Made by a program: the position numbers and the translations under genes
Source: an uncultured archaeon
GTDB taxonomy: Archaea > Nanohalarchaeota > Nanosalinia > Nanosalinales > Nanosalinaceae
Length of the DNA: 12,580 nucleotides
NCBI GenBank assembly: GCA_964485165.1
Contig: CAZAII010000017.1
Span: 1-12,580 of the forward strand
Reading direction: 5' to 3'
The notes under the pieces: generated by a model
Seen by the model: only the letters and a program-made list of their open reading frames with translations
Database searches by the model: none
What the model was told of the DNA's origin: nothing
Part shown: positions 644-12,580 of the stretch, piece by piece
Position numbering within the stretch: the stretch's first letter is position 1
How the letters are laid out: every line of letters starts with the position of its first letter

Positions 644-720
644 AACAGTATCACGTCGTTTAACAGAAACTCGGATGAAAAACCTGTTAATAAGCACTTT
701 AGAGGTTTAGATTTAAATAC

Positions 721-1734
721 CTACTTGGAATCGTCCTCTCCTGTAGCCTTCCTCTCATCATCCAGCATGCTCGACCTGAGGCCTCCTGTCAGCTCCTCAA
801 GGTTGACGTTCTCCAGCACCTCGTCGACTATGTTCTGCACCGGTGAAGGGCCCTCGTCAACATCGCTTTGCTCCGGCATCAGCTCGGCGGGAATCGTAAG
901 TATGGTCGAGTTTTCCTGTGCGACGCGGTCCAGAGTCTCCAGCGTCCTCAGCTGGTATCCTCCCTTGCCCAGGATGTCTGATGCCGCACGCATCTCCACT
1001 GCAGCCTGCAGCTCTCCCTCTGCCTCCTTCAATTTGGCGCGCCTTGAACGCTCCGCTTCCGCCTCAGCCGCCATCGCCCTTTCCATCGAGTCGGGGATGG
1101 AGACATCCTGGATCTCGACGTCACGAATATGGATGCCGAAGTCGTTCGTCGCCTTGTCAAGGTCCTGTCTCAGCTCCTCGGCTATCTCGTCCCTGTTCTG
1201 GAGGATATCGTCCAGCTCCTTCCTCCCTATTATCGCCCTCAGCATTGTCTGACCGTAGTTCACCGTGACCTGGTTGAAGTCCTCGACCTCAAGTATCGCC
1301 TTCTTTATCTCCTCGGGGTCGCGCCGCACCTTGTAGAACACTATCGCATCGACTGTAACCGTCACGTTGTCCTTCGTCAGCACCTTCTGGGGGTTGACGT
1401 TCACTGTCTTGACCCTGTAATCCACCTTCTTCGTCCACTCGAGGAAAGGTATTATGATGTTGAACCCCGGTCCAAGGACGCGGGAGTAGCTTCCCAGTCG
1501 GAAGACAAGGGCGCGTTCGTACTCCTGGTTTATGACTATGGAAAAGTAGAACAGTAAAGCGAGCCCTGCACCGACGAACATGCCAGCACTTCCACCAACC
1601 ACCGATCCGATGCCCGCCAGTATCACCAGCAGAACCACTGTTAGTACTATCTTTGCCGCCGAGAACGAGCCCGACATGCCTGGCGACATCGACCCGTGAA
1701 GGTCCTCACTTACCGCAACTGCTCCGTTGGCCAT
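721..1734 (-). CDS. SPFH/band-7 domain membrane protein (stomatin/prohibitin/HflK-C family)
   Basis: This is a 337-aa ORF. The N-terminal hydrophobic stretch is AKIVLTVVLLVILAGIGSVVGGSAGMFVGAGLALLFYF. A band-7 core follows (RALVFRLGSYSRVLGPGFNIIIPFLE...VTVDAIVFYKV...GQTMLRAIIGRKELDDIL). An Ala/Glu-rich coiled-coil segment (ERAMAAEAEAERSRRAKLKEAEGELQAA) and an acidic C-terminal tail complete the protein. Confidence 0.85.
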   Translation of the reverse strand: MANGAVAVSEDLHGSMSPGMSGSFSAAKIVLTVVLLVILAGIGSVVGGSAGMFVGAGLALLFYFSIVINQEYERALVFRLGSYSRVLGPGFNIIIPFLEWTKKVDYRVKTVNVNPQKVLTKDNVTVTVDAIVFYKVRRDPEEIKKAILEVEDFNQVTVNYGQTMLRAIIGRKELDDILQNRDEIAEELRQDLDKATNDFGIHIRDVEIQDVSIPDSMERAMAAEAEAERSRRAKLKEAEGELQAAVEMRAASDILGKGGYQLRTLETLDRVAQENSTILTIPAELMPEQSDVDEGPSPVQNIVDEVLENVNLEELTGGLRSSMLDDERKATGEDDSK

Positions 1735-1822: not shown

Positions 1823-3286
1823 TCAGTAGTTCTTCGCGAAATAGACCCATTTCTTCGCGTTCTCCCCGCAGACCGCGCATTCGCCTTCGATTTCCTCCTC
1901 GCGGATCTCCTCAGGTTTCGAGTCCTCCCGGAACGGGAGCACGACTATCTCCGCTGCGACCTCCTGCTTGACCTCTTCCTCACACGATTCTTCACCACAC
2001 CACTTCGCCTTCACGTAGCCGCGGTTCTTGCCTATGATGCCAAGGATTTCCTGCTTCGACTCCGCCTCCCGGATGTTCTCCTCAAGGTACTCCTCCAGCC
2101 GGTTGTACATCGACCTCTGGACGTCGTAGAGCAGCTGCTCGACCTCTTCCTCCGCCTCGCCGACAGGTATCGACTCCTGTTCGTCAGTATCACGTCTGAC
2201 CGCGGTCACCTCCGCGTCCGACACCTCGTTAGGCCCTATCTCGAGCCTCAGCGGGACACCTTTCAGCTCCCACTCGTTGAACTTGTAGCCCGGCGACCGG
2301 TGGTCGCGGGCATCTACCTCGGTCCTGAACTCGGAGAGTTCCTCATTCACCTCTTCCGCGTATTCCAGGACCTCCTGCCTGTTGTCGTCTTGGTAGATGG
2401 GGACGATGACGACCTGTACCGGAGCGACAGTCGGAGGAAGTTTCAGGCCATCATTGTCGCCGTGCGCCATTATCAGGGCGCCGACAGTCCTGGTTGACAG
2501 GCCCCAGCTGGTGGTCCAGCAGGTCCGGGTCTCAGCGTTCTCGTCCTCGAACTCTATATCGAACGCCTCCGCGAAGTTCTGGCCGAGCTGGTGCGATGTC
2601 CCTGACTGGATGGACTTACCGTCTGGCATCAAGGTCTCGATGGTAGTAGTGTATTTCGCGCCCGGGAACTTGTCGTGCTCAGGCTTGTAGCCGAGTATAG
2701 ATGGAATCGCGAGGTGCTCCTCTATGACCTCCTTGTACTGCTCAAGCCTCAGCATCGTCTCCTCGTCCGCCGCGCTCTCATCCGCGTGTGCCGTGTGGCC
2801 CTCCTGCCAGAGGAATTCCCTGGTGCGCAGGAAAGGCCGCGTATCAGTGGCTTCCCACCGGACGATGTTCGCCCACTGGTTGAGCCGGAGCGGAAGGTCG
2901 CGGTGCGACCTCACCCACTTCGACATGAAGGGTGCGATTATCGACTCGGAGGTCGGCCTTACAGCGAGCCGCTTCTCCAGCTCCTCGTCACCACCGTGGG
3001 TGACCCAGGCGACCTCCGGGGAGAAACCCTCGACGATGTCCGCCTCCTTCTCAAGGTATTCTTCGGGTATCAAAAGTGGGAAGTAGGCGTTCTCAGCCCC
3101 TGTTTCAGTTATCTTTTCGTTGAAATCCTGCTTTATCGACTCCCAGAGCTTCAGGCCGTACGGCCTGAACACCATGCAGCCCTTTACAGGTGCGTAATCC
3201 GCCAGCTCCGCCTTCTGCACCACCTGGGTGTACCACTCTGAAGGGTTGCTCTGCTTGTCCGCCGTTATACCCAGTTCCTGCGACAT
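1823..3286 (-). CDS. proS: Prolyl-tRNA synthetase, archaeal/eukaryotic type (class II)
   Basis: The translation carries ...SEWYTQVVQKAELADYAPVKGCMVFRPYG...FPLLIPEEYLEKEA...LAVRPTSESI...RTREFLWQEGHTAHA...GDNDGLKLPP and ends in the family-typical ...KWVYFAKNY. The ORF-track start at 3343 is a TTG. The first ATG is at 3286-3284 (M20, MSQELGI...). Its position matches the N-terminus of archaeal ProRS, which begins near the SEWY motif. A TATA-like box lies about 26 nt upstream of this ATG. Confidence 0.9.
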   Translation of the reverse strand: MSQELGITADKQSNPSEWYTQVVQKAELADYAPVKGCMVFRPYGLKLWESIKQDFNEKITETGAENAYFPLLIPEEYLEKEADIVEGFSPEVAWVTHGGDEELEKRLAVRPTSESIIAPFMSKWVRSHRDLPLRLNQWANIVRWEATDTRPFLRTREFLWQEGHTAHADESAADEETMLRLEQYKEVIEEHLAIPSILGYKPEHDKFPGAKYTTTIETLMPDGKSIQSGTSHQLGQNFAEAFDIEFEDENAETRTCWTTSWGLSTRTVGALIMAHGDNDGLKLPPTVAPVQVVIVPIYQDDNRQEVLEYAEEVNEELSEFRTEVDARDHRSPGYKFNEWELKGVPLRLEIGPNEVSDAEVTAVRRDTDEQESIPVGEAEEEVEQLLYDVQRSMYNRLEEYLEENIREAESKQEILGIIGKNRGYVKAKWCGEESCEEEVKQEVAAEIVVLPFREDSKPEEIREEEIEGECAVCGENAKKWVYFAKNY

Positions 3287-3312
3287 GCTTGTCTCACGGG
3301 GAAAGTTCAGAA

Positions 3313-3324
3313 GATAAGCTATTT
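3313..3324 (-). promoter_or_regulatory. TATA-like box (AAATAGCTTATC on the minus strand) about 26 nt upstream of the proS ATG at 3286
   Basis: An A/T-rich box sits at the canonical archaeal TATA distance from the first ATG, so the transcript would be leaderless. It lies in the divergent spacer shared with the zinc-finger gene. Confidence 0.4.
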
Positions 3325-3364
3325 CAAGGTTTTTAGTTGACAAGCCGGCCGAAAGAGGTCATTC

Positions 3365-3372
3365 TTTTTAAC
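3365..3372 (+). promoter_or_regulatory. TATA-like box (TTTTTAAC) about 21 nt upstream of the zinc-finger/thioredoxin gene ATG at 3394
   Basis: The box is seen in CATTCTTTTTAACTCGAGACGCCTAACTCGTTGTATG. Its spacing to the ATG is the same as at mre11 and herA. Confidence 0.4.
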
Positions 3373-3393
3373 TCGAGACGCCTAACTCGTTGT

Positions 3394-3957
3394 ATGTCTG
3401 GAGAAGCCTACGAGTGCCCGGAGTGCGGCAAGAAGTTCGGCTCGGAGGAGACTCTCCACGACCATTTCGAGATGGAGCACGAATCCGTCGACTTCCTCGA
3501 ATCCAGGAGGGCGGGAGAGAAGAGACCTGTCGACCTTTTTAAGGCTATAAGGCCCTATCTCAACGTCTCGTTCGCCCTCGGCCTAATGGCCGGCTTCCTT
3601 ATTACGACAGCAGCTTTTACCGGATACGCCCACCTCAGCAAGGACCGCGGCGTTCCAGTGGAGATAACGGTTGTGACCTGCGAAAACTGCAGCTACGACC
3701 GTTTCCGCGACACCACCGACCGGCTTTTCAACACCCGCTACGAGGAGGTGGACTACCGGAGCAACAGGGGGCGGGAGCTCATCACCAGGTACAACCTTAA
3801 GTACGTGCCCGGCTTCGTCTACTCCAAAGACATCGAGGAGGCGAAGAACTTTACCTACGTCCGCGCCTCCCTGGTCGAGTTCGACGATGCGTACGTTCTC
3901 GCGGACGAGGGCAACCGCGTAGCCCAGCGGTTCAGCAAGGGAATGCAACTGGAGTAG
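3394..3957 (+). CDS. Membrane protein: N-terminal C2H2 zinc finger, single TM helix, C-terminal thioredoxin-fold domain with a CENC motif
   Basis: The zinc finger is a canonical eukaryote-type C2H2 (C-x2-C-x3-F-x5-L-x2-H-x4-H), seen as YECPECGKKFGSEETLHDHFEMEH. The TM helix is VSFALGLMAGFLITTAAFTGYAHL, with Arg/Lys clustered on its N-terminal side, implying N-in/C-out topology. The C-terminal domain has beta1-CxxC (EITVVTCENC), then helix, beta, helix, and a cis-Pro-type motif KYVPGFVY. This fits a thioredoxin/glutaredoxin fold. The ORF track starts at a TTG at 3337; the first ATG is at 3394. Confidence 0.6.
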   Translation: MSGEAYECPECGKKFGSEETLHDHFEMEHESVDFLESRRAGEKRPVDLFKAIRPYLNVSFALGLMAGFLITTAAFTGYAHLSKDRGVPVEITVVTCENCSYDRFRDTTDRLFNTRYEEVDYRSNRGRELITRYNLKYVPGFVYSKDIEEAKNFTYVRASLVEFDDAYVLADEGNRVAQRFSKGMQLE

Positions 3958-3963
3958 TTATCG

Positions 3964-3975
3964 ATAAAAGATTTT
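3964..3975 (+). promoter_or_regulatory. TATA-like box (ATAAAAGATTTT) about 23 nt upstream of the mre11 ATG
   Basis: The 36-nt spacer CGATAAAAGATTTTGAACCAAACCTTCTCCAGATG contains the A/T box. Its T-run could also terminate the upstream gene. Confidence 0.4.
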
Positions 3976-3993
3976 GAACCAAACCTTCTCCAG

Positions 3994-5157
3994 ATGAAGG
4001 TTTCTATAATCAGTGACACCCACTTCGGATACAAATGGGGAGAGGAGCGCGGGGAAGACGCCTTCGAGAACGCGAGGGGGGCCTTCGAGAAGTCCCTTGA
4101 TGCCGACCTGATAATCCTGCCCGGCGACATCTTCGACCGGAAGATTCCCAAGCAGGAGGTCCTCGATAGAGCGGCGGAAGTCCTCTCCATCCCGATGGAA
4201 GGTGAGCGCAACGTGGAGGCGGACTGCGAGCTCGGTATCCACGGCAACGGCATCCCCACAGTAGCGATTCACGGGACGCACGAGAGGAGGCCCAGCGCAT
4301 ACACCAACCCCATCGAGCTGATGGCGAACACGGGACACCTTTTCCACCTCCACAACGACCACATAGTATTCGAGAAGGACGGGGAGAAGGTCGCGGTCCA
4401 CGGCATGAGCGGCGTCCCGGAGAAGTACGCCCCCCAGGTGCTGGAGAAGTTCGATCCCGAACCCGTCGACGATGCGTTTAACATACTGGTCATCCACCAG
4501 TCAATCGAGGGCTTCGTCTACACAGGTGAAGGCGAATACCTCACGCTGGAGTCGCTGCCCAAGGGGTTCGACCTGATAGTCGACGGTCACATCCACTGGT
4601 ACAACATCGAGAGGTTCAAGGAAGATCCGGAGGAGAGACCGCTGGTCTTCCCCGGTTCGACGGTCACGACCCAGATGAGGAAGATAGAGGCCGAGAAGCC
4701 GAAAGGGTTCCTTATGCTCGACACCGAAACGCGGGAGCTCGACTTCGTCGAACTCGACAGGCCGCGCGATGTCCACTACATCGAGATGGAGGTGGACGGA
4801 GAGGACTGGACCGAGATAAAACGGGAGGCGGTGGAGCGGCTGGAGGAAGTCGCGAGCGACGAGAAGCCGCTGGTGAACCTGAAGATAAAGGGAGAGACTT
4901 CCGGCCGTGTCAATCCGCGGGAACTCAAGCAGCTTTTCCGCGACCGGATGTTCCTCAACGTCAACTCCTCCATCGAGGGAGCGGAGACCCAAAGTTCCTC
5001 CATGAGCCAGAACATCGACCCTCTTGAAGAAGGGAGAGAGATGCTTGCGGAGAAGCTCGACGTCAAGTTCGGGCAGGAGGAAGAGCTTTTCGAGCTCCTT
5101 GAGAGCGGCAGCACTTCTGAAGCCATAAAACTGCTGAAGCAGGCGGAGATAGGATGA
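3994..5157 (+). CDS. mre11: DNA double-strand break repair nuclease Mre11 (calcineurin-like metallophosphoesterase)
   Basis: Phosphoesterase motifs are present: I (IISDTHFG), II (ILPGDIFD), III (AIHGTHERR, the GNHE-type position) and V (DGHIHW). A C-terminal capping-domain-like region follows. The stop codon overlaps the rad50 start as ATGA. Confidence 0.9.
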   Translation: MKVSIISDTHFGYKWGEERGEDAFENARGAFEKSLDADLIILPGDIFDRKIPKQEVLDRAAEVLSIPMEGERNVEADCELGIHGNGIPTVAIHGTHERRPSAYTNPIELMANTGHLFHLHNDHIVFEKDGEKVAVHGMSGVPEKYAPQVLEKFDPEPVDDAFNILVIHQSIEGFVYTGEGEYLTLESLPKGFDLIVDGHIHWYNIERFKEDPEERPLVFPGSTVTTQMRKIEAEKPKGFLMLDTETRELDFVELDRPRDVHYIEMEVDGEDWTEIKREAVERLEEVASDEKPLVNLKIKGETSGRVNPRELKQLFRDRMFLNVNSSIEGAETQSSSMSQNIDPLEEGREMLAEKLDVKFGQEEELFELLESGSTSEAIKLLKQAEIG

Positions 5158-7412
5158 TAAAGAAGGTCGAACTACAGAACTGGAAGTCACACCACGAGAC
5201 CGATCTCGAGTTCTCGGAGGGAGTCAACGCACTGATAGGGACCATGGGCTCCGGAAAGTCGAGCGTCCTCGAGGCGATCGTATTTGCTCTCTACGGTACC
5301 ACGCCCAGCCTCAACGCCCGGGAGGTCAAGCTGGACGATGTCATCAGGAGGACCCCGTCAAGAGCGGACAGTGCCCGCGTGAAAGTGGTGCTAGAGGTGG
5401 AGGGCGAGGAGTACTCCGTGGAGAGGGAGATAGAGCGCGGCAAGGGAACCTCGAGGAGCGAGCTGCGGAAGGACGGGGAGCTCATCGAGGCGCCTTCCAC
5501 CGAGGAGGTGACGGAGCAGGTTGTAAAGCGGATCGGCATGGACTTCCAGTCTTTCACGAGAGCGGTTTTCTCAGAGCAGAACAACCTCGACCTGTTCCTG
5601 GAGATGCGCGCCGGGAAAAGAAAGGAGAGGATAGACGAGCTTCTCAGGCTGGACAGGTTCGAGGACGCCCGGCAGTCGGCGGTCAAGGTGGAGAACCAGA
5701 TGGAAAAAGAGTTCGAGTCGAAACAGGAGGACCTGAAAGCACTTGAAGAAGACTGGGAAGAGGAAGAGCTTGAAGAGCTTGAAGAGGAGATAGAAGAACA
5801 TAAGGAAAAGATAGAGGAACTGGAGCAGGGGCTCAAGGAGCTCTCAGAACAGGTAGAAGACAGGCGGGAAAAGCTTGACGAGTTGAAGCAGAGACGTGAC
5901 CGCCATCGGGAACTCGAGAAGAGACATACGAAACTGGAGACACGGCTGGAATCAGTTGAGGAGCAGGTTGAGGAGATAGACGCAGAGATGGTTGAGGACG
6001 CGGCCGAGGAACTGGAAAAGGCGCGTGAAGAGCTCGAAGAACTGGAACAGCTGGAAAGGGACATAGACCGCCAGAAGCAGGAGCTTGACCACCTGGAGCA
6101 GAAGCGAGAAAGCCTTGAAGAAGAGAAAGAGCAGGTAAAGGAGAACGTCGAGAAGTTCGAAAGGTTCGACGAACTGGAGGAAGAGCTGGATGAGGTCGAA
6201 CAGCAGATAGACGAGATAAAGAACGAGGGCAACCAGGTATACGCCGAGAGGACCAACCTGGAGGAGAGCCTGGAGACTCTTGAGGATACTGATGGTGAAT
6301 GTCCTACCTGCGGCCAGGAGCTCGACGAGGAACACAGGGAGGAGATACGGCAGGAGAGGACGCGGAAGATAAAGGAGCTGAAGAAGCAGGAGAAACGACT
6401 CAGGCAGGATATCGAAAAACTCATGGACAGGAAGGAAGAACTGGTGGAAGAAAGAGACGAACTGCTCCAGCACCGGAACGCGGCCGAAAAACTGGCAGAC
6501 AAAAAAGAAGAGCTGGAAAGTCTGGAGAAAGATATAGAGGCCGCGGAAAAGGAACTTGAAGAGATTGAGGAAGAGTTCTCTCCGGAAAGAGTGGAACGCG
6601 TGGAACAGGAAATCGAGGAGCTGGAAGCCGCGGAAGAACTCCGGGAACTGGAGCAGAAGAGAGACGCGCTTGAAGAAAAGATGGACGAAACGGAGGAGGA
6701 ACTTGAAGAGCTGGATTTCGACGAGGAACGGATGGAGGAGGTGCAGGAAGAAGTTTCAGACCTGGAAAAAGAGCAGTCGGTAAAGCAGAACACCGTGGAA
6801 TCGGAGAGGGAACTGCTGGAAGAGAAGCAGAAAAGGCTCGAAAACCTTGAGAAGCAGAGAGAGCGGCTGGAAGAGCTGGGGCACGAGACCGAAAAGCTCG
6901 ACAGGCTGATGGACTACCTTCACCACTACCGGACCGCGCTCGAAGACACACAGGTCTCGCTGAGGCAGAGGTTCGTGCAGCGGCTTAACGACCTGATGGA
7001 CCGGATCTGGAGCCAGGTCTACCCCTACGACGACTACTACTCCATAAGGTTGAACGCCGAGGAAGACTACCTCCTGGAACTCCTCGACGCAGAGAACAAC
7101 TGGATATCAGCCGAGGCACAGGTATCGGGCGGCGAGAGGCATTCCGCTGCGCTGGTGATGAGACTCGGCCTCACTTTCGTGCTCTCCCCCAAGATCCAGG
7201 TCCTGATGCTCGACGAGCCAACCCACAACCTTGATTCAAGCGCGGTAGAAGAACTCGCGGAGACCCTGCGAGACAGGACCTCCGACCTCATAAAACAGCT
7301 TTTCGTCGTCACACACGATCCCGCGCTTGAAGCCGCGGCGACAGGAAGGCTCTACCAGTTCGAGAAGAAGGACACCGAGACTGGACTCACAGAGGTAGAG
7401 GAAGTCCGGTAG
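5154..7412 (+). CDS. rad50: DNA double-strand break repair ATPase Rad50 (SMC-like ABC ATPase with zinc hook)
   Basis: The N-terminal Walker A is LIGTMGSGKSSVLEAI. A very long Glu-rich coiled coil is interrupted by a zinc-hook CPTC (DGECPTCGQEL, nt 6299-6310). The C-terminal half carries the signature SGGERHSAALVMRLGL, Walker B VLMLDEPTHNLD and the H-loop VVTHD. The ATG at 5154 overlaps the mre11 TGA. Confidence 0.92.
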   Translation: MIKKVELQNWKSHHETDLEFSEGVNALIGTMGSGKSSVLEAIVFALYGTTPSLNAREVKLDDVIRRTPSRADSARVKVVLEVEGEEYSVEREIERGKGTSRSELRKDGELIEAPSTEEVTEQVVKRIGMDFQSFTRAVFSEQNNLDLFLEMRAGKRKERIDELLRLDRFEDARQSAVKVENQMEKEFESKQEDLKALEEDWEEEELEELEEEIEEHKEKIEELEQGLKELSEQVEDRREKLDELKQRRDRHRELEKRHTKLETRLESVEEQVEEIDAEMVEDAAEELEKAREELEELEQLERDIDRQKQELDHLEQKRESLEEEKEQVKENVEKFERFDELEEELDEVEQQIDEIKNEGNQVYAERTNLEESLETLEDTDGECPTCGQELDEEHREEIRQERTRKIKELKKQEKRLRQDIEKLMDRKEELVEERDELLQHRNAAEKLADKKEELESLEKDIEAAEKELEEIEEEFSPERVERVEQEIEELEAAEELRELEQKRDALEEKMDETEEELEELDFDEERMEEVQEEVSDLEKEQSVKQNTVESERELLEEKQKRLENLEKQRERLEELGHETEKLDRLMDYLHHYRTALEDTQVSLRQRFVQRLNDLMDRIWSQVYPYDDYYSIRLNAEEDYLLELLDAENNWISAEAQVSGGERHSAALVMRLGLTFVLSPKIQVLMLDEPTHNLDSSAVEELAETLRDRTSDLIKQLFVVTHDPALEAAATGRLYQFEKKDTETGLTEVEEVR

Positions 7413-7415
7413 CTG

Positions 7416-8888
7416 CTACATGAAGGCTTCCGCGTCGCTGTCCTTCCTCTCCTGTTCCTCCTCCCAGTCCTCAAGAGCCTCCTCCAGCGCGTCGCTGGAC
7501 TCCGCTTCCTTAGACCGGCGCTCCCTCACGTCGACGAAAGTGGGGTAGTTGACGGCCTCCCCTATAACTATGGCCTCCCCGGTCTTGAGTCCGGGTATCT
7601 GGTTCTTGACATCGCTGGTGATGCCCTCACTGGACTGCGCGATGTGCTCCAGGTCGTTGGGATTGGTAACGCGAAGGATGAACTGGGTGTTGCACTGTGA
7701 GAGCGCGGTAGTGGAAAGCCTCACCGGCCTCTGCGATATCAGGCCGAGAGAGCAGTTGAACTTCCTTCCCTCCCTGGCGATTTTCTCCATCACCGGGCGG
7801 GAAGGCGCCGGCGCCTCACCTGGAGCAAAGTTGTGTGCCTCTTCAACCAGGTAGAGGAAGGGCGGGATGCTCCCCCTTCTCCGCAGCCGGAAGAACCTCC
7901 GGCCGAAGTAGGCGGCTATTATCTGTTTCTTCTGGTTGTTTATGACGTCGTTGAGGTCGATTATGTTAAGCCGGCCGGGTTCTATATCGACGGGTGCCGG
8001 AGAGTCCGTTTTCCCAAATATGTCCATCGAGTCCAGCTTCCTCAGCTTCCTCATCAGGGCATACTTCACGCTGGAATTCATCTCCTTCGCCTTAATCCGC
8101 GAAATGACGTCTTCAAGGCCGAAATCCGTGTTTTCAGAGCGGTTGAGCTCGGAGAACACCTCTCTCAGCTCCTCTCTCTGCGGGCCGCTCATCTCCCCGT
8201 TGAAGAACATCGCCACCTGTTCGGCGGAGAGCTTGTTGACGGCGATGCCCAGGTCGCTGTCGCCGTAGACACGGGTCCGGGACATGTAGTTCTCGTCCTC
8301 CGCGAAGGAGGTATAATCGCCGTGAGGGTCGACCGCGACCACCGCGGGAGCGTTCTCCCGGTCAAGCAGTTCCTCAAGTATGACCGAGGCGGAGTAAGAC
8401 TTGCCGGCGCCTGACTGGGCGAGCACAGCAAAGTGTTTCTGTAGCGTGTCAGTCATGTCAAGGCTCGCATCGAGCCCCTGCTGCTGTACTGTCCCGATCA
8501 CGAGGCCGCCCTCCACCAGGCCGAGGAACCTCTTGACGCGATCGGAATCGGCCTTCTCCACTTCCTGTCCCGGAGAAGGCGCCTGGCTGACCCTCTTGAT
8601 CATACCCTGGCTGAACTTTCCCATCACCACCGCCTTGGCTATCGAGACCTCCCAGTCGTCGACCGGGAACCTGTCGCGGATCGATTCACCTTTTCTCATG
8701 GACTCGGAGACACTCTCCGGGTTCTCGAAGTATTCATTGGACCGGAAGACCTCTGCGATCCGGGCCATAACAGTTTCATCACCTTTCCCGTATTCCAGGT
8801 AGGCGCCTTTCCCTATATCCTCGTCAAGGACAACGTAGAACTCGTCTGAGCTGGGTGTATCGTTCCAGCCGACAATAGTTCCTGCCAT
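7416..8888 (-). CDS. herA: HerA-type HAS-barrel/FtsK-like hexameric helicase-translocase
   Basis: The N-terminus is HAS-barrel-like (MAGTIVGWNDT..EFYVVLDED...YLEYGKGDETVMARIAEV). Walker A is LAQSGAGKSYSASVI. Walker B is of DEAH-like type (LYLVEEAHNF). The HerA-characteristic motif block is REGRKFNCSLGLISQRPVRLSTTALSQCNTQFILRVTNPNDLEHI. The C-terminal tail is acidic. Confidence 0.85.
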   Translation of the reverse strand: MAGTIVGWNDTPSSDEFYVVLDEDIGKGAYLEYGKGDETVMARIAEVFRSNEYFENPESVSESMRKGESIRDRFPVDDWEVSIAKAVVMGKFSQGMIKRVSQAPSPGQEVEKADSDRVKRFLGLVEGGLVIGTVQQQGLDASLDMTDTLQKHFAVLAQSGAGKSYSASVILEELLDRENAPAVVAVDPHGDYTSFAEDENYMSRTRVYGDSDLGIAVNKLSAEQVAMFFNGEMSGPQREELREVFSELNRSENTDFGLEDVISRIKAKEMNSSVKYALMRKLRKLDSMDIFGKTDSPAPVDIEPGRLNIIDLNDVINNQKKQIIAAYFGRRFFRLRRRGSIPPFLYLVEEAHNFAPGEAPAPSRPVMEKIAREGRKFNCSLGLISQRPVRLSTTALSQCNTQFILRVTNPNDLEHIAQSSEGITSDVKNQIPGLKTGEAIVIGEAVNYPTFVDVRERRSKEAESSDALEEALEDWEEEQERKDSDAEAFM

Positions 8889-8905
8889 GAAGACTCCTTG
8901 GCCTC

Positions 8906-8916
8906 AAAAAATTTAA
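8906..8916 (-). promoter_or_regulatory. A/T box (TTAAATTTTTT on the minus strand) overlapping the stop codon of the upstream surface-protein gene, about 22 nt upstream of the herA ATG
   Basis: The 24-nt spacer reads TAAATTTTTTGAGGCCAAGGAGTCTTC before the ATG. The box has TATA-like spacing for herA. The same T6 run could terminate the surface-protein operon. There is also a GGAG 8 nt upstream of the herA ATG. Confidence 0.35.
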
Positions 8917-11066
8917 CTCTGAGTGAAGACCAAGATACCCGATACCAACAGTATCACGATGAGATGCACCATGCCTATGCCCGGCACATTCCTCGTCTGG
9001 ACCTCCACCCCTCCTGTGGTGTTTGTGCTAGAGCTGGAGAGTATATCAACCACCACGCTGTCTTCGCCGGAGATGGCGGAGTTCTGGACATCAGCCTGTA
9101 CCCTGAGGTCCGACGCATCTATGTTCTCGTTGCCTCCGTATATCTCTGCCTGGAAAGTCCGGGAACTCCTTGCCGGGATGGTGGTGTTGAAGCCATCGCC
9201 TCCCTGGCCGACGAAGCTTACCCACTGCGACACCGGCGTATTCTGGAGTTCAACGTCGAAGGTGCGGGCCTGCGACTCGACGTTGATGAGTTGGAAGTTT
9301 ACCTTCCTGGTCTCTCCCAGGCCTACCTCTATCGAATCCTCCTCGAACACTATCGGCCACTCCTCGTACCATACGTTCTGGAAGCAGGCGATGGTCCGGC
9401 TGTCGCTTCCGAAGTTGAAGGTCACGTTCTCGCCCGGCTCGTAGACCATCCTCTTCTGCTTGTCGGGCGGAACCGGGTAGCTGGAACCCTCCAATATACA
9501 GCTCCCGTCTGTCTTTGCAACACCTATAACCGAGTTATTGTTGTCACATAGCCGGGTATTGCATCTCTGGGTTACAAGGTGTTCTCCATCATCATCACCG
9601 CCGCAGAAACCCATCGATGCGATGGTCCTGTTGGGGTTGGGGGATACCAGCTCGCCGCTTGAAACCGGTGATATCTCCCATTCACCGTCACCGTCAGGAT
9701 CGTAGTCCGGTGTCCCGTCGGCGTCATAATCATAAGTTGGATGGGACGGGTTCGATGTCAGGTTATCGGTTATATCGCCGTCGGCCCACCGCTGTCGCAG
9801 GTACTGGTTCCAGTCATCGTCAATCCCTCCCTGAACCGCGAACGGGTAGGTGGTTACGTATCCCGAGTCGAACCATCTTACGCCCTGAGAGCCGTAGAGG
9901 GTGTTCTGCTGGCATGTATCCTGACCCCCTCCAACGGTAGTGTTCCCATAATCTTGATCCCACCATTTCCATATGGAATCTAGTGAATCCTCCAGACAGA
10001 TTTCCTCATCCTGCTTGAGACGACCCCATCTCTCCCCGCTTTCGCGAACATCGATCGTATCACCGTCCTCGAAAAGCTTTTTACCAGGTGCATCCATGTA
10101 GACGCACGCGGCCCGGGAATCAGCACAAGCGTAACGGCCATCGTAAAGACCCGAGTTTTCTACTTCTCCTGCCTCCTCAAGAAGGAACTCCTTCTGGTCG
10201 TCGCCGCACATCGGAGGTTCCAAGAGCGGAACGGTCTCCCCCACAGTACTGGTATCTGAGGCGCCTTCATCCACATCACCGTCCCCGTCGTTATCTTCAG
10301 TGTCTTTCTCGCCCTCGAAGTAGATATTCCCGTACATGACCCAGTTGCGCGGAGCATCAGTATAGGTTATATCATCGTTGTCATCAGTATTGATGCCGAT
10401 ACCCGAGTCAGGTCCTGAGAGGTCCATCCCGAATGAAAGCGCCATGCGCCAGTCCCTCCTTATCTTCCCGTTCAGGCTCCATTTCCTCAGCTGGTCGGGG
10501 TCTATCCAAACGCCGTCACCAATCTCAACCGTATCACCCTTCTGGTCCGTCCATGAAGTCGTGGCCTCCGCTGCGTATGAGTTGCCGAAGACCTTCACTG
10601 TCTTGGAAACGCTGTCATCCTCGGCATCCGACCTCTGAGGACCTGAATAATCGTCGTGGTAGTAAGTGGCTCCAGGACTGTAAGGAACCCCGCGGTTCGA
10701 CAGGCTGTAGTTCATGAAAAGGGTTATCGCCCACTGGTCGGCCCGGTCCTGTGTACCCATCGAGTCGTGCCACTTCGCATCATCCGGGGAGTCGACGTTC
10801 TGCTGCCCGTCAAGTTCCGTGTCCGGGTCGGAAGCGGGACTCGACATGCCGAAGGCGGTGGTGTTCATGCCGGGCTCCAGCTGGTTCGAAGAGTCCTCGA
10901 GCTTGTTAACCTTACCATTAAATTCAGGAGGCGGCGATGAAGGAGCAGTATCGGTGCCGTTATGATGAAAGTCCTCGTCCCTTTCGTATTGTGATTGACC
11001 GAGGCCCGCGAGCAATAGGACGAGGAAAACAAGTATAACGATTCCAGATAGTGAGGTCTCACGCAT
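8913..11066 (-). CDS. Secreted/cell-surface protein: signal peptide, Asp/Gly-rich calcium-loop-like repeats, Cys-containing domain paralogous to the upstream gene, beta-sandwich-like domain, Ser/Thr linker and C-terminal TM anchor
   Basis: This 717-aa ORF begins with a signal peptide (MRETSLSGIVILVFLVLLLAGLGQSQ). DxDxDG-type loops are present (DTEDNDGDGDVDEG, DYDADGTPDYDPDGDGEWE). There are at least 10 N-x-S/T sequons and paired cysteines. The C-terminus reads ...SSSSTNTTGGVEVQTRNVPGIGMVHLIVILLVSGILVFTQS, which is a Ser/Thr linker, then a PGx motif and TM helix resembling a PGF-CTERM, but without a basic tail. The ATG lies 1 nt after the stop of the upstream ORF. A GGGAGG sits about 10 nt upstream of the ATG. 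Confidence 0.72.
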   Translation of the reverse strand: MRETSLSGIVILVFLVLLLAGLGQSQYERDEDFHHNGTDTAPSSPPPEFNGKVNKLEDSSNQLEPGMNTTAFGMSSPASDPDTELDGQQNVDSPDDAKWHDSMGTQDRADQWAITLFMNYSLSNRGVPYSPGATYYHDDYSGPQRSDAEDDSVSKTVKVFGNSYAAEATTSWTDQKGDTVEIGDGVWIDPDQLRKWSLNGKIRRDWRMALSFGMDLSGPDSGIGINTDDNDDITYTDAPRNWVMYGNIYFEGEKDTEDNDGDGDVDEGASDTSTVGETVPLLEPPMCGDDQKEFLLEEAGEVENSGLYDGRYACADSRAACVYMDAPGKKLFEDGDTIDVRESGERWGRLKQDEEICLEDSLDSIWKWWDQDYGNTTVGGGQDTCQQNTLYGSQGVRWFDSGYVTTYPFAVQGGIDDDWNQYLRQRWADGDITDNLTSNPSHPTYDYDADGTPDYDPDGDGEWEISPVSSGELVSPNPNRTIASMGFCGGDDDGEHLVTQRCNTRLCDNNNSVIGVAKTDGSCILEGSSYPVPPDKQKRMVYEPGENVTFNFGSDSRTIACFQNVWYEEWPIVFEEDSIEVGLGETRKVNFQLINVESQARTFDVELQNTPVSQWVSFVGQGGDGFNTTIPARSSRTFQAEIYGGNENIDASDLRVQADVQNSAISGEDSVVVDILSSSSTNTTGGVEVQTRNVPGIGMVHLIVILLVSGILVFTQS

Positions 11067-11067
11067 G

Positions 11068-12580
11068 TTATGCCGGCCTCCCGAAGAAGGAATAAAATAC
11101 TGGTTTATGTCTGTAGGGTGTTACCCAAGCATCGTCACATCCCCAAAGTAAAGGACCACAGTCGTCCTCAAGCGCTAGGCCAGTGTTGCCGTCAGGACTC
11201 CCGACACCCCTTAGATTGTAGCTGGAGTGGTAGGGATTCTGGTTCTCCCTCCAATAGTAAGCAACATCATATATATCTCCTGGATCGCCACCAGTTATCA
11301 GTGAGTTACCTACACCGTTAAGGTAATCGTTTACCCTTTCATCGTCCATGTCATACCACTCACCACCAAAATCGCCTACCCCAACAGTGTGGTCTGCATT
11401 GTCCCAGGGCTTGGTGTCACTTCCAACCCCACCAAAGTCGAGACAGACCTCAAAGTCGGGAGATTCCAGATTCCACTCATACGGATAAACAGGTAAAACA
11501 GTCCCCTCAGCAAAAATGCCTCCCTTATTGACACAAGCGCTTGAAGTTATAGATTCCCCGAAGTAGTCCTGATCATCCGCCCAGTCGACACATCGCTGCT
11601 CATGGGCCAGGAAATTTTTTGTAACACCACTGTCTACCTCAGATCCCTCCATCAGAATCAAATGCTCGTCATCTTCATCTCCACAGGCCTCAGGCAGTGG
11701 GGAAACATCTTCGGAGCCTGGAGAACCTCTTTCATAATCGCAGTCGATTAGCTCTCCACCCGGCCCGTTTTGTTCGTTGATGTAGTTTATCATCTTGCAG
11801 ACTGAGTAAGAATCATCAGGCGTAAAGGTCTGTACATTTACCTCAACCGCATTATCAGCGGCTACACTTGGGTCTTCATTCACCCATCCACTGCTCTTTG
11901 TCCTGTAATCAATGTACTTCAGACAGTATCTCTTGTCGGCCGGACATGAATTCGAGATCAAATCCCTTCTTGCGCTGGAAGCTCCGTTTACGAAAACTCT
12001 TTCCCCAACCCTGTCAGAACCATCAGGGCTCATAGTCGCCACTATAGAGCCAGGAACTTCCTCTATCACGACGAAACCGTCGCCGTAACCACGGGGTCCA
12101 TCCGCGTCCACCGTGGTAATCTCCTCGTAGCCGCACCATACCTTGCCCTCAGGACCTATACTGTTGTCAGCATGGGCGGTGAAATCGGTTAGGACGCCTG
12201 CAGGGTCATTATCCGCCTTATTCGAGTATTCATCGTCGTTGGTATCCCCGCCCCCGTCTATCCGGTTGTTCGTGTTGCAGTCGATTGTACCTGTCATCTC
12301 AAAGCTCCTCTTATTGCCTGCATCGTCACCGTCTGCGTTGCACTCGCTACCGAAGCAGGTGCAGCTACCGTACTGGTCGTAGCAGCCACAACATGTCCCG
12401 GAATTTCCGGCACTACATCCCGAAGCGGAGGCCACACAGTCGGTGCAGTCCACAGTGCATTCGTAATGCTCAAGTATGTCTCCGTTCGTCAGCCAGTAGT
12501 CATTGGATTCATCCCCGCTGTAATCGGTATCCACGGAACAACTTGCGTCGGTACAGCTCGGGCTTCCACATGCGCTACCG
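11068..12580 (-). CDS. Secreted/cell-surface Cys-, Asp- and Gly-rich protein (5' end outside window), paralogous to the downstream gene
   Basis: The frame stays open from 12580 to the TAA at 11068-11070. The ORF-track M at 12534 is a GTG, and upstream codons (GSACGSPSCTDASCS) continue in frame. A hyper-Cys module lies at nt ~12274-12580 (CTVDCTDCVASASGCSAGNSGTCCGCYDQYGSCTCFGSECNADGDD). Calcium-loop-like motifs are present (DADGPRGYGDG, DGGGDTNDDEY). A domain at ~11170-11688 is shared with the 717-aa protein (ACGDEDDEHLILMEGSEVDSG ~ MCGDDQKEFLLEEAGEVENSG; DDERVNDYL ~ DDDWNQYL). There is no C-terminal TM segment. Confidence 0.7.
   Translation of the reverse strand, partial: GSACGSPSCTDASCSVDTDYSGDESNDYWLTNGDILEHYECTVDCTDCVASASGCSAGNSGTCCGCYDQYGSCTCFGSECNADGDDAGNKRSFEMTGTIDCNTNNRIDGGGDTNDDEYSNKADNDPAGVLTDFTAHADNSIGPEGKVWCGYEEITTVDADGPRGYGDGFVVIEEVPGSIVATMSPDGSDRVGERVFVNGASSARRDLISNSCPADKRYCLKYIDYRTKSSGWVNEDPSVAADNAVEVNVQTFTPDDSYSVCKMINYINEQNGPGGELIDCDYERGSPGSEDVSPLPEACGDEDDEHLILMEGSEVDSGVTKNFLAHEQRCVDWADDQDYFGESITSSACVNKGGIFAEGTVLPVYPYEWNLESPDFEVCLDFGGVGSDTKPWDNADHTVGVGDFGGEWYDMDDERVNDYLNGVGNSLITGGDPGDIYDVAYYWRENQNPYHSSYNLRGVGSPDGNTGLALEDDCGPLLWGCDDAWVTPYRHKPVFYSFFGRPA

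What the first reader, a model, noticed from the sequence alone, without database searches (positions are those of the whole stretch)
8913..12580. Two-gene operon of paralogous, very Cys/Asp/Gly-rich secreted proteins with calcium-loop-like motifs: candidate novel surface complex
The two ORFs are separated by 1 nt (TAA c ATG), with a GGGAGG about 10 nt upstream of the second start. This implies coupled expression. Both products are dominated by D, G, N, Y, W and paired Cys. Both contain multiple DxDxDG-type loops (DNDGDGDVD, DADGTPDYDPDGDG, DGGGDTNDD, DADGPRGYGDG), reminiscent of thrombospondin-3 or beta-roll calcium sites. The downstream protein has at least 10 N-glycosylation sequons. It has a clear signal peptide, a C-terminal Ser/Thr linker and a TM anchor. 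The upstream protein has no C-terminal anchor. A natural model is a secreted subunit held at the cell surface by its anchored paralogue, in an adhesin-like or S-layer-accessory-like arrangement. I do not recognise the family. The upstream gene also has visibly lower GC (about 47-50%, against about 55-58% for neighbouring housekeeping genes). This may be a composition effect or a sign of horizontal acquisition.
Basis: partly seen in the sequence, partly recalled or inferred. Interest (0 to 1): 0.7.

Follow-up and report, generated by a model that had tools for sequence, protein, structure and literature searches.

The report
Split nanohaloarchaeal cell-surface glycoprotein gene
The two genes are the two halves of one large, uncharacterised cell-surface protein found only in Nanohaloarchaea (tiny salt-loving archaea that live attached to other archaea); most relatives make it as a single chain, and here it is split into a free outer piece and a membrane-anchored piece.

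Summary
The ORFs are real. Gene A (11068..>12580, minus strand, cut by the contig end) and gene B (8913..11066, minus strand) are separated by TAA-c-ATG, with GGGAGG 10 nt upstream of the ATG.

They are not full-length paralogues. They share one ~100-aa cysteine module, present once in A and twice in B.

Both families occur only in Nanohaloarchaea, in about 38 species genomes. They always sit in the same position, upstream of HerA/Rad50/Mre11/ProRS. In most relatives A and B form one ~1,500-aa polypeptide: signal peptide, A, B, beta-sandwich domains, Ser/Thr linker, then a conserved VPG[IL]G..Q transmembrane C-terminus. The window is therefore a gene-fission variant in which B has gained its own signal peptide. 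Other lineages split B again.

This supports a surface complex of secreted A held by anchored B. No Pfam, NCBIfam or PDB relative exists for about 80% of the length. The Ca. Nanohalococcus orthologue is transcribed.

The low GC is a sharply bounded 1.2-kb mosaic tract (10872-12044). It has saturated synonymous divergence, which fits a recombined allele of the distal part.

Function (host contact or envelope/S-layer) is inferred, not shown.

The parts
11068..12580 (-). Gene A, partial CDS. It encodes the C-terminal 503 aa of a secreted, anchorless, Cys-rich protein of about 780 aa. The stop codon TAA is at 11068-11070. About 280 N-terminal codons, including the signal peptide, lie beyond the contig end.
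   Evidence: Translation. The closest orthologue, P0029, is 782 aa, 72% identical, and aligns to its residues 285-782. Full-length orthologues have an N-terminal hydrophobic signal-like segment.
12277..12579 (-). Variable Cys-rich stretch of A (residues 1-101). It holds 14 Cys in CxxC-, CxC- and CC-type spacings.
   Evidence: Cys positions. This region is poorly conserved in alignment A2.
11725..12276 (-). Conserved core of A (residues 102-285), with the near-invariant motifs IDGGGD (12244-12261) and TVDADGPRGYGDGFVVI (12064-12114).
   Evidence: Invariant columns in A2. The AlphaFold2 model is beta-rich with moderate confidence here. No PDB fold match was found.
11332..11724 (-). Copy of the 'CGDD-E(Y/H)L ... 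CV ... PD.EVC ... WYD' cysteine module in A (residues 286-416).
   Evidence: hhalign of seed alignments: A module against the first B module 93% (E = 2.7e-7), against the second B module 89% (E = 2.5e-6).
11071..11331 (-). Conserved C-terminal tail of A (NPNPYH, LALEDDCG, FYSFF). In fused orthologues this tail abuts the start of the B part directly.
11064..11082 (-). A/B junction: GGGAGG (11077-11082), A stop codon TAA (11068-11070), one spacer base (11067) and the B start codon ATG (11064-11066). This layout fits translational coupling.
   Evidence: Other split loci have 4-nt or 11-nt overlaps between the two genes.
8913..11066 (-). Gene B, complete CDS of 717 aa: a membrane-anchored, N-glycosylation-sequon-rich surface protein.
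10989..11066 (-). Sec-type signal peptide of B (residues 1-26, MRETSLSGIVILVFLVLLLAGLGQSQ). It is absent from fused orthologues, so it was gained after the fission.
   Evidence: In fused P0004 the junction reads ...FYSNFSEGARDEDYHP with no hydrophobic segment. Hydrophobicity scan.
10305..10988 (-). B-N module (residues 27-254), with motifs RDEDF, NQLEPGM, ADQWAIT, KVFGNS, GVWIDPD, DLSGPDSGIG and YFEGE. In some lineages it is encoded as a separate gene.
   Evidence: Conserved columns. Split into its own gene in L005/L006/L007. AlphaFold2 confidence is low here.
10230..10304 (-). Asp-rich linker (DNDGDGDVDEG and flanks). This is the position where B is split in the three-gene lineages.
9942..10229 (-). 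First cysteine module of B (residues 280-375; PPMCGDDQKEFLLEE ... WWDQDYG).
9627..9941 (-). Conserved middle region of B (GVRWF, GGIDDDWN). It contains a lineage-specific Asp-rich insertion, DYDADGTPDYDPDGDG, at 9684-9731.
9351..9626 (-). Second cysteine module of B (residues 481-572; FCGGDDDGEHLVTQ ... VWYEEWP). It is predicted with confidence as a beta-rich domain.
9039..9350 (-). Beta-sandwich stalk domain of B (residues 573-676), of the CARDB/macroglobulin Ig-like type.
   Evidence: AlphaFold2 pLDDT is 81-91 here. Foldseek matches the macroglobulin domains of complement C3 and cobra venom factor at E about 1e-8. CARDB appears in the precomputed Pfam column for the B homologue P0023; the direct CARDB hit in P0067 lies in a different, N-terminal part of that protein.
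8991..9038 (-). Ser/Thr-rich linker (SSSSTNTTGG...).
8916..8990 (-). Conserved C-terminal signal-plus-anchor: R-N-V-P-G-I-G-M-V-H followed by a hydrophobic helix, ending FTQS.
   Evidence: The PG pair is invariant. Gln or His sits at +6 in 81 of 93 members. The distance from Pro to the C-terminus is fixed at about 23 aa. The same ending occurs on other nanohaloarchaeal proteins that are otherwise unrelated apart from a shared C-terminal beta-sandwich.
10872..12044 (.). Divergent low-GC mosaic tract. It covers A codons 179-503, the junction and B codons 1-65.
   Evidence: DNA identity to the sister locus L003 is 0.61-0.73 here against mostly 0.75-0.93 (median ~0.83) outside. GC is 0.46-0.53. 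pS is 0.85-0.86 and pN 0.16-0.21, against pS 0.43-0.65 and pN 0.05-0.11 in the flanks. The GC3 drop is absent from orthologous A genes.

Best explanation
**What it is.** Genes A and B are the two halves of one conserved envelope glycoprotein specific to Nanohaloarchaea. In most members of the phylum it is a single chain of about 1,500 aa. The order is: Sec signal peptide, variable Cys-rich N-terminal region, A core, cysteine module, B-N module, cysteine module, middle region, cysteine module, beta-sandwich, Ser/Thr linker, and a VPG[IL]G..Q transmembrane C-terminus.

**What happened in this lineage.** The gene was split exactly at the A/B-N boundary. The downstream half gained its own signal peptide. 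The two halves stayed translationally coupled (1-nt spacer, GGGAGG 10 nt upstream of the ATG).

**How it most likely works.**
- Both halves are exported by Sec. Their conserved cysteines are oxidised outside the cell.
- B is N-glycosylated and tethered to the membrane by its C-terminal segment. That segment may be processed like a sorting signal.
- A has no sequons and no anchor. It docks non-covalently on the B ectodomain as the membrane-distal part.
- The distal part is the fastest-diverging segment and has been exchanged by recombination. I therefore infer that it is the outward-facing contact surface of this obligate episymbiont, most likely for recognising or attaching to the haloarchaeal host envelope.

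**Shown:** the gene anatomy, phyletic restriction, synteny, fusion and fission, shared module, conserved C-terminal signal, transcription of an orthologue, and the mosaic tract.

**Inferred:** export, disulfides, glycosylation, A-B docking, and the host-contact role.
For: - **Restricted family.** Homologues of B (28) and A (14) are all from Nanohaloarchaea. A profile search of 1.84 billion representatives finds only 142 proteins at E <= 1e-3. A scan of GTDB species genomes returned 40 loci (39 labelled nanohaloarchaeal or 'uncultured archaeon/euryarchaeote', one a mis-binned 'Colwellia' MAG), including complete genomes. No relative was found in IMG/VR viral contigs.
- **Constant position.** The locus always lies upstream of HerA/Rad50/Mre11/ProRS.
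- **Fusion.** In P0004, residues 58-557 are 41% identical to A (E = 1e-99) and run straight into RDEDY, the start of mature B, with no signal peptide between. About 30 cluster representatives of 1,300-1,650 aa show the end of the A profile abutting RDEDY, with an N-terminal signal peptide and the PG-plus-TM C-terminus.
- **Fission.** B is further split into B-N and B-C genes in L005/L006/L007, and B-C there has its own signal peptide. In a neighbour-joining tree of the B-C region, split and fused forms interleave. This indicates several independent events at module boundaries.
- **Export of A.** Full-length A orthologues have N-terminal signal-like segments and no C-terminal anchor.
- **Extracellular features.** All 10 Cys of B and at least 12 Cys of A are invariant. 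B has 10 sequons and A has none. Nanohaloarchaea encode PDI- and DsbB-like proteins.
- **Conserved C-terminal signal.** It is shared with other nanohaloarchaeal surface proteins.
- **Expression.** SVXNc_0418, the fused orthologue, is listed at 4033 'RPKM' (PMC10266531 Table S1). Only 8 of the first 163 genes in that table are higher. ProRS is listed at 1712 and the annotated 'S-layer' proteins at 3458 and 747.
- **Rapid evolution of the distal half.** A is 71.6% identical to its L003 orthologue, against 83-97% for six neighbouring genes. The mosaic tract is described.
Against: - There is no direct evidence for localisation, glycosylation, disulfides or A-B binding.
- AlphaFold2 models are poor for most of both proteins (mean pLDDT 55 and 51). 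No fold-based functional clue exists apart from the generic beta-sandwich stalk.
- No adhesin, lectin or enzyme domain is detectable.
- A universal, single-copy, syntenic gene is more typical of a structural envelope component than of a strain-specific adhesin.
- Ca. Nanohalovita has a B homologue (HBNXNv_0667), but no A homologue was recovered for it. A may therefore be dispensable or replaceable.
- Values in the expression table recur identically across genes of different length. They may not be length-normalised, so 'highly expressed' is not secure.
- The N-terminus of this particular A is missing.
Confidence: 0.55

Rival explanations
1. It is the S-layer of Nanohaloarchaea, or a main lattice component of it. 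A would form the outer canopy and B the membrane-anchored stalk, in the manner of SlaA/SlaB of Sulfolobales. In the single-chain form it would resemble the haloarchaeal S-layer glycoprotein.
For: - Nanohaloarchaea show a regular S-layer by EM and cryo-ET, but the papers read here do not identify the protein (PMC7443923; PMC11291902).
- The gene is universal, essentially single-copy and syntenic in the phylum.
- It is transcribed at or above the level of housekeeping genes.
- Its C-terminal layout (Ig-like beta-sandwich, Ser/Thr linker, PG motif, TM) and its sequons mirror haloarchaeal S-layer glycoproteins (the comparison rests on my own knowledge of Hfx. volcanii csg).
- The anchorless-plus-anchored gene pair mirrors slaA-slaB.
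Against: - There is no sequence match to any S-layer family in Pfam or NCBIfam.
- Other genes are annotated as S-layer proteins in the cultivated strains (SVXNc_0478 and 0977; BNXNv_0277, 0530, 0625, 0988), and a preprint reports homology-detected S-layer proteins in the phylum.
- Size varies greatly (650 to 4,622 aa), with 8-10 tandem module copies in some species. That is unusual for a lattice protein and typical of fibrillar adhesins.
- No lattice evidence exists.
Confidence: 0.25
2. It is a metal-dependent (Ca2+ or Mg2+) acidic matrix protein whose Asp/Glu-rich loops are the functional sites. In some lineages these would be modified post-translationally by the HTTM (vitamin-K-dependent gamma-carboxylase-like) membrane protein encoded inside the cluster.
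For: - A has conserved acidic Gly-rich motifs (VDGGGD, VDADGPxGxGDG), and the cysteine modules carry invariant CGDDxxE.
- An HTTM gene (Pfam E = 3.5e-12) lies between A and B-N in L005, L006 and L007, and next to an A homologue on a fourth contig.
Against: - No Pfam calcium-binding family matches.
- HTTM is present at the locus in only 3-4 species. It appears to have been acquired from Halobacteria (42-45% identity), where its genomic context is uninformative.
- It is absent from this window.
- High Asp/Glu content is the norm for proteins of salt-in halophiles.
Confidence: 0.07
3. The split is an artefact or a decaying gene: a frameshift or assembly error in a MAG has broken a single ORF, and A and B are not separately functional.
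For: - The two frames differ by one base at the junction.
- The source is a short metagenomic contig.
- Most relatives are fused.
Against: - B starts with a 26-aa signal peptide that is absent from fused forms. The junction is therefore not a simple frameshift.
- The same split, with the same layout, occurs in an independent assembly (L003/L008). Comparable splits with 4-nt or 11-nt overlaps occur in at least 8 other species.
- Where synonymous sites are not saturated, both halves look constrained against L003: B dN/dS 0.08 overall, and A codons 1-178 also 0.08. For the rest of A, dS is saturated and no ratio can be computed.
Confidence: 0.03

Closest known systems
SlaA/SlaB S-layer pair of Sulfolobales
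   Same: Adjacent co-oriented genes. A large anchorless secreted subunit sits next to a smaller subunit with beta-sandwich domains and a C-terminal transmembrane anchor that holds the first subunit on the cell.
   Different: No sequence or detectable fold relationship. Here the two subunits are demonstrably one polypeptide in most relatives. There is no evidence for a lattice. The anchored subunit has no predicted coiled-coil stalk. The family is confined to Nanohaloarchaea.
Haloarchaeal S-layer glycoprotein with PGF-CTERM (archaeosortase A substrate)
   Same: Sec signal peptide, acidic composition, N-glycosylation sequons, Ig-like beta-sandwich domains, a Ser/Thr-rich linker, then a conserved Pro-Gly motif, one hydrophobic helix and a short tail at the extreme C-terminus. 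The motif is shared by several surface proteins of the lineage.
   Different: The NCBIfam PGF-CTERM model does not match. The motif is VPG[IL]G with a conserved Gln or His inside the helix. The basic tail is absent in the window protein. About 80% of the ectodomain has no known domain. No archaeosortase could be looked for on a 12.6-kb contig.
Giant nanohaloarchaeal/DPANN surface proteins (SPEARE and the 8,880-9,409-aa Ig-repeat proteins of Ca. Nanohalovita and Ca. Nanohalococcus)
   Same: Surface proteins of Nanohaloarchaea that are proposed to mediate host interaction. Members of the present family can also be expanded to 3,000-4,600 aa by tandem module repeats.
   Different: The family and domains are different: no protease, restriction-endonuclease, WD40 or VirB4-like parts (PMC10266531). 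The present gene is a core syntenic gene rather than strain-specific. It is not discussed in the papers searched.
Cleaved two-subunit surface glycoproteins made from one precursor (for example viral class I spikes: a distal receptor-binding subunit bound non-covalently to an anchored subunit)
   Same: A distal variable part and a proximal anchored part derive from one ancestral chain and must stay associated. The distal part evolves fastest and recombines.
   Different: This is an analogy only. Separation here is at the gene level. No cleavage site or fusion machinery has been shown, and there is no homology.

Membership tests
PGF-CTERM / archaeosortase A sorting signal | Match to the curated PGF-CTERM model (NCBIfam/TIGRFAM) | tested here: not met
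   Four C-terminal 39-42-aa segments of family members gave no NCBIfam hit at E <= 10. The whole proteins also gave none.
PGF-CTERM / archaeosortase A sorting signal | Tripartite extreme C-terminus: conserved Pro-Gly motif, one hydrophobic helix, short (usually basic) tail | tested here: inconclusive
   The PG pair is invariant in all 93 of 107 family members that carry a PG motif in the last 45 residues. The helix and its length are conserved. K or R occurs in the last 6 residues in only 47 of 93 members, and the window protein ends FTQS.
PGF-CTERM / archaeosortase A sorting signal | The same signal occurs on several different proteins of the lineage | tested here: met
   Nanohaloarchaeal proteins of 150-630 aa that lack the A, B-N and cysteine modules (they share only a C-terminal beta-sandwich with B) end in [ED]VPG[IL]G..Q plus a helix.
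PGF-CTERM / archaeosortase A sorting signal | An archaeosortase gene in the same genome | not testable with these tools
   Only a 12,580-bp contig of this organism is available. The complete nanohaloarchaeal genomes could not be scanned with an ArtA model here.
Thrombospondin type-3 / DxDxDG calcium-binding repeats | Match to the Pfam TSP_3 model, or repeated canonical DxDxDG loops that are conserved in the family | tested here: not met
   No Pfam hit at E <= 1. DxDxDG-like strings occur only in B, in a semi-conserved linker and in a lineage-specific insertion.
RTX beta-roll (HemolysinCabind) | Tandem GGxGxDxUx nonapeptides / Pfam match | tested here: not met
   No Pfam hit. Only a single GxGDGFVV string is present in A.
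SlaA/SlaB-type two-component S-layer | Anchorless large subunit gene adjacent to a gene for a C-terminally anchored subunit | tested here: met
SlaA/SlaB-type two-component S-layer | Sequence or fold homology to SlaA/SlaB, and formation of a 2-D lattice | tested here: not met
   No Pfam, NCBIfam or PDB sequence match. Fold searches return only generic Ig-like domains. Lattice formation cannot be tested here.
Haloarchaeal S-layer glycoprotein family | Match to curated halobacterial surface glycoprotein models | tested here: not met
   No NCBIfam or Pfam match.
SPEARE proteins of Nanohaloarchaeota | Giant size with protease, adhesion and restriction-endonuclease domains | tested here: not met
   A and B, and fused orthologues up to 2,555 aa, show none of these domains in Pfam.
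Substrates of HTTM / vitamin-K-dependent carboxylase-like enzymes | Gamma-carboxylated Glu residues, and a dedicated HTTM enzyme in the genome | not testable with these tools
   An HTTM gene is embedded in the orthologous cluster of 3-4 species but not in this window. The modification cannot be assessed from sequence.

The most novel reading that the evidence does not exclude
This is the principal outward-facing envelope structure of Nanohaloarchaea. It would be either the still-unidentified S-layer or a spike embedded in it. Its distal A half would be a recombining, exchangeable host-specificity determinant. Its proximal half would be attached through a previously undescribed sorting signal specific to Nanohaloarchaea (VPG[IL]G..Q-CTERM). 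In one clade the protein would additionally be modified by an HTTM enzyme captured from the haloarchaeal host lineage.
Probability: 0.2. Interest if true: 0.75.

Novelty: new variant of a known kind. Interest (0 to 1): 0.5.

Why it matters
Nanohaloarchaea are obligate episymbionts of haloarchaea. How they recognise and hold their hosts is an open question. So far only strain-specific LamG/PKD proteins and giant SPEARE-type proteins have been proposed for this role.

This analysis defines a phylum-wide surface protein that is syntenic, transcribed and entirely unannotated. It has named orthologues in all three cultivated strains checked: LC1Nh_0457, SVXNc_0418 and HBNXNv_0667. About 80% of its length has no known domain.

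Natural fusion and fission events say which parts work together. The distal part shows allele replacement. The family also exposes a conserved C-terminal sorting-like signal shared by other nanohaloarchaeal surface proteins.

All of this gives concrete, testable targets for envelope proteomics, cryo-ET and host-binding assays. The window itself is an ordinary (split) member of that family, not a new mechanism.

Tried and rejected
- **Domain and family searches.** Pfam and NCBIfam on A, B, fused orthologues and upstream neighbours gave nothing except CARDB, Big_7 and HTTM on other proteins.
- **PGF-CTERM model on C-termini.** No hit.
- **PDB profile searches** with both family alignments: 0 hits at E <= 1.
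- **AlphaFold2 of B (26 sequences) and of the full-length A orthologue (14 sequences).** Only the B C-terminus is confident.
  - Foldseek against PDB for B returns only macroglobulin/Ig-like stalk domains.
  - Foldseek against PDB for A returns nothing (best E = 0.8).
- **Full-length paralogy.** Rejected. The first hhalign hit between the two family alignments was caused by fused sequences inside the B alignment. It was redone on trimmed alignments. The expanded module alignments cross-recruited 45 segments, so the seed-only values are the ones quoted.
- **Exact look-up of the window B protein and of P0009.** Not on record.
- **Viral origin.** No relative in IMG/VR.
- **tRNA and Rfam scans of the window.** Nothing.
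- **Literature.** No paper was found that links Nanohaloarchaea to Cys-rich proteins, archaeal HTTM, or LC1Nh_0457. The DPANN cryo-tomography preprint concerns a different organism. The supplements of the PNAS paper with proteomics are not held.
- **Haloarchaeal HTTM neighbourhoods.** Uninformative.

Full report
**1. Observation**

The window is a whole 12,580-bp metagenomic contig. On the minus strand, ORF B (8913..11066, 717 aa) follows ORF A (11068..>12580, at least 503 aa, open at the contig end).

The junction reads TAA-c-ATG. GGGAGG lies at 11077-11082, 10 nt before the ATG.

- B has an N-terminal hydrophobic signal-like segment, 10 N-x-S/T sequons (5.8 +/- 2.2 expected), an SSSSTNTTGG linker and a C-terminal hydrophobic helix.
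- A ends without an anchor and has no sequons (4.1 +/- 1.8 expected).
- A is Cys-rich (25 Cys, 5.0%). B is not (10 Cys, 1.4%), but all ten are invariant in its family.
- A has GC3 of 0.52, against 0.66 for B and 0.72-0.80 for the neighbouring genes.

The neighbours are SPFH, ProRS, Mre11, Rad50 and HerA. HerA starts 24 nt downstream of B on the same strand.

**2. Are A and B paralogues?**

BLASTP of A against B gives E = 0.2.

A first profile comparison gave 98% probability. That result came from A-like N-terminal extensions on some sequences inside the B alignment. With trimmed alignments, only one module is shared. Its pattern is P.CGD[DE]..E[YH]L ... C.D ... CV..G..[YF].EG ... PD.E[VI]C ... 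WYD.

The module occurs once in A (residues 286-416 of the window fragment) and twice in B (280-375 and 481-572). Seed-only hhalign gives:

| Comparison | Probability | E-value |
|---|---|---|
| A module vs first B module | 93% | 2.7e-7 |
| A module vs second B module | 89% | 2.5e-6 |
| First vs second B module | 79% | 1.7e-5 |

. Expanded alignments give 97-99.5%, but they cross-recruited segments from each other. The A core and the B-N module are unrelated to each other. 'Paralogous proteins' should therefore be replaced by 'two proteins sharing a repeated cysteine module'.

**3. Distribution and context**

- The named hits of both searches are all Nanohaloarchaea; unnamed metagenome hits carry no taxonomy: 28 for B and 14 for A.
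- An exhaustive profile search of 1.84 billion representatives finds only 142 proteins at E <= 1e-3.
- A scan of one genome per GTDB species returned 40 loci: 39 labelled nanohaloarchaeal or simply 'uncultured archaeon/euryarchaeote', plus one on a MAG mislabelled Colwellia polaris. These include Ca. Nanosalina, Ca. Nanosalinarum, Ca. Nanohalobium and two complete chromosomes.
- No viral contig encodes a relative.
- In these loci the gene(s) lie upstream of ProRS, usually with HerA, Rad50 and Mre11 in between.
- Orthologues in cultivated strains are LC1Nh_0457 (1,499 aa), SVXNc_0418 (1,504 aa) and HBNXNv_0667 (974 aa). All are annotated 'hypothetical protein'.

**4. Fusion and fission**

In P0004, residues 58-557 are 41% identical to A (E = 1e-99). 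They continue directly into ...SEGARDEDYHP, which is the start of mature B, with no signal peptide between.

My survey of ORFs in 47 loci and of the profile hits shows one dominant architecture. It is a single chain of 1,300-1,650 aa, with an N-terminal signal peptide, the end of the A profile abutting RDEDY, and a PG-plus-helix C-terminus. Sizes range up to 4,622 aa, with 8-10 module copies at a period of about 400 aa.

The A|B split seen in the window recurs in about ten other species, with 4-nt or 11-nt gene overlaps. In L005, L006 and L007, B is itself split between YFEGE and P.CGDD. The result is a B-N gene and a 431-aa B-C gene with its own signal peptide.

In a neighbour-joining tree of the B-C region, split and fused forms interleave. 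The tree is rough and has no support values. For example, the window and L008 (split) are sister to L004 and L009 (fused). This implies several independent events at module boundaries.

The window is therefore a fission variant. A frameshift artefact is excluded for three reasons:
- B has its own 26-aa signal peptide, which fused forms lack.
- An independent assembly (L003/L008) has the same layout.
- Both halves show dN/dS of about 0.08 wherever it can be measured.

**5. Export and anchoring**

Full-length A orthologues start with a hydrophobic signal-like segment and have no C-terminal helix. P0029, at 72% identity, indicates that about 280 residues of A are missing from the window.

Of 107 B-family members, 93 end in [RQ][DN][VI]-P-G-[IL]-[GT]-x-[VI]-Q-(hydrophobic)-[FY]FF-x-S. 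The PG pair is invariant. Gln or His sits at +6 in 81 of 93. The distance from Pro to the end is 23 residues in 45 of 93.

The same ending closes other nanohaloarchaeal proteins that lack the A, B-N and cysteine modules and share only a C-terminal beta-sandwich with B. One of them is annotated 'Ig-like domain-containing protein'.

This degree of conservation, and the sharing between families, is what sorting signals look like. However, the curated PGF-CTERM model does not match, and no sorting enzyme could be sought on a 12.6-kb contig.

**6. Fold and family**

Pfam and NCBIfam give no hit for A, B or five fused orthologues, apart from one CARDB match. PDB profile searches give nothing.

The AlphaFold2 model of B is confident only for residues ~495-680, which cover the second cysteine module and a beta-sandwich. 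Foldseek matches this region to macroglobulin-type Ig-like domains (E about 1e-8), which is a generic stalk.

The model of the A orthologue is of moderate quality for residues ~300-560 and 600-720. It matches nothing credible.

**7. The calcium-loop idea**

A's VDGGGD and TVDADGPxGxGDGFVVI are at least 90% conserved. B's DNDGDGDVDEG is semi-conserved. B's DYDADGTPDYDPDGDG is an insertion found only in the window and in P0002. No calcium-binding family matches. The idea is not excluded, but it has no specific support.

**8. The low-GC region**

Orthologous A genes have GC3 similar to their neighbours, so the low GC is not a property of the family.

Against the sister locus L003, DNA identity is mostly 0.75-0.93 across the contig (a stretch of Rad50 dips to 0.65-0.70). 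It falls to 0.61-0.73 between 10872 and 12044, where the window's GC is 0.46-0.53. Identity then rises abruptly to 0.89-0.93.

In that tract pS is 0.85-0.86 and pN 0.16-0.21. In the flanks pS is 0.43-0.65 and pN 0.05-0.11. Synonymous saturation combined with a codon-usage shift points to replacement of this segment by recombination with a more distant, lower-GC nanohaloarchaeon. Relaxed constraint alone would not produce this pattern.

The tract covers the C-terminal two-thirds of the A fragment, the junction, and B's signal peptide and first ~40 mature residues. No closer donor is present in the databases.

**9. Expression**

Table S1 of PMC10266531 lists SVXNc_0418 at 4033 'RPKM'. For comparison:

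| Gene(s) | Listed value |
|---|---|
| SVXNc_0418 (fused orthologue) | 4033 |
| Ribosomal proteins | 2800-9450 |
| ProRS | 1712 |
| Annotated 'S-layer' proteins | 3458 and 747 |
| SPEARE protein | 13131 |

Only 8 of the first 163 genes listed exceed SVXNc_0418. Identical values recur for genes of different length, so the numbers may not be length-normalised. I take them only as proof of clear transcription.

The same table lists PDI-like and DsbB-like genes, which fits extracytoplasmic disulfide formation.

**10. Interpretation**

*Shown:* a phylum-restricted, syntenic, transcribed surface-protein gene of modular build. Its halves are fused in most species and split here. It has a conserved C-terminal signal-like anchor and a recombined distal segment.

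*Inferred:* both halves are exported by Sec. A docks non-covalently on anchored, glycosylated B. The fast-evolving distal part faces outward and mediates contact with the haloarchaeal host.

*Main rival:* the protein is the S-layer, or a main component of it (about 0.25). Universality, synteny, expression and a csg-like C-terminal layout favour this. The extreme size variation with tandem module expansion, the lack of homology to known S-layer proteins, and the existence of other annotated S-layer candidates count against it.

I found no paper describing the family.

**11. Verdict**

It is wrong on paralogy and unsupported on calcium loops.

The window itself is one ordinary member, in split form, of an undescribed, Nanohaloarchaea-specific envelope protein family. 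Interest is moderate. It is a useful, testable lead for DPANN host-interaction and envelope biology, not a new kind of system.

Noticed in passing
L005:2632-4269, L006:2970-4604, L007:2710-4344: A 545-aa multi-pass HTTM-domain protein (vitamin-K-dependent gamma-carboxylase-like; Pfam E = 3.5e-12) is encoded between the A gene and the B-N gene in one nanohaloarchaeal clade. Its nearest relatives (42-45% identity) are Halobacteria (Natrialbaceae, Halorubrum), which is the host lineage. This suggests horizontal capture. The haloarchaeal genomic contexts are uninformative.
   Followed up: partly
L002:4329-9959 (also upstream of A in L011, L019, L025, L033, L039): Two paralogous secreted Cys-rich proteins of 949 and 902 aa lie directly upstream of A. 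They have no Pfam domain and carry a CNDGVDNDG.G metal-site-like motif, and they are preceded by DUF1512 and SpoU/TrmJ genes. By gene order (unverified by sequence), the probable equivalents in Ca. Nanohalococcus, SVXNc_0415-0417, are transcribed. The surface-protein island is therefore larger than the two genes in the window.
   Followed up: partly
window 12580 (contig end); L003:1-131; L004:1; L005:1-169; L021:1; L027:1; L030:1: Many independent assemblies break inside or just upstream of the A gene. This suggests strain-level microdiversity or repeats that defeat assembly at this locus.
   Followed up: no
P0045 (3709 aa, Ca. Nanosalina sp. VS9-1, L029:1955-13084), P0053 (4622 aa), P0047 (3044 aa): Giant members of the family carry 8-10 tandem copies of the cysteine module at a period of about 400 aa before the normal B end. 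The family can therefore be expanded like a fibrillar adhesin.
   Followed up: partly
C-termini of P0150, P0151, P0154-P0158, P0160, P0163-P0165, P0169, P0170: Other nanohaloarchaeal proteins of 150-630 aa, which share only a C-terminal beta-sandwich with B, end in the same [ED]VPG[IL]G..Q-plus-helix sequence as B. This may be a lineage-specific sorting signal that the PGF-CTERM model does not recognise.
   Followed up: partly
window 7416-8888 (HerA, minus strand), 5154-7412 (Rad50, plus), 3994-5157 (Mre11, plus), 3337-3957 (206-aa ORF, plus): HerA starts 24 nt downstream of B on the same strand and converges on Mre11-Rad50. No NurA is evident. The 206-aa ORF upstream of Mre11 has no Pfam match and is conserved in L003 (86% identity).
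   Followed up: no
window 227-1252 (plus strand): A 341-aa ORF without any Pfam match overlaps the SPFH/Band-7 gene (721-1734, minus strand) on the opposite strand. It is probably not a gene.
   Followed up: no
L033 (JBLGBK010000008.1): A contig carrying a typical nanohaloarchaeal fused A-B gene followed by ProRS is deposited under a 'Colwellia polaris' MAG. The contig is evidently mis-binned.
   Followed up: no
PMC10266531 Table S1: The 'RPKM' values recur identically for genes of very different length (for example 632.856, 1712.5 and 17.108). They may be quantised counts rather than length-normalised values.
   Followed up: no
Ca. Nanohalovita haloferacivicina HBNXNv_0667 (P0009/P0043): This cultivated strain has a B homologue with a different, Ig/Fn3-like N-terminal extension, and no A homologue was recovered for it. 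The distal part can apparently be swapped for another domain.
   Followed up: no
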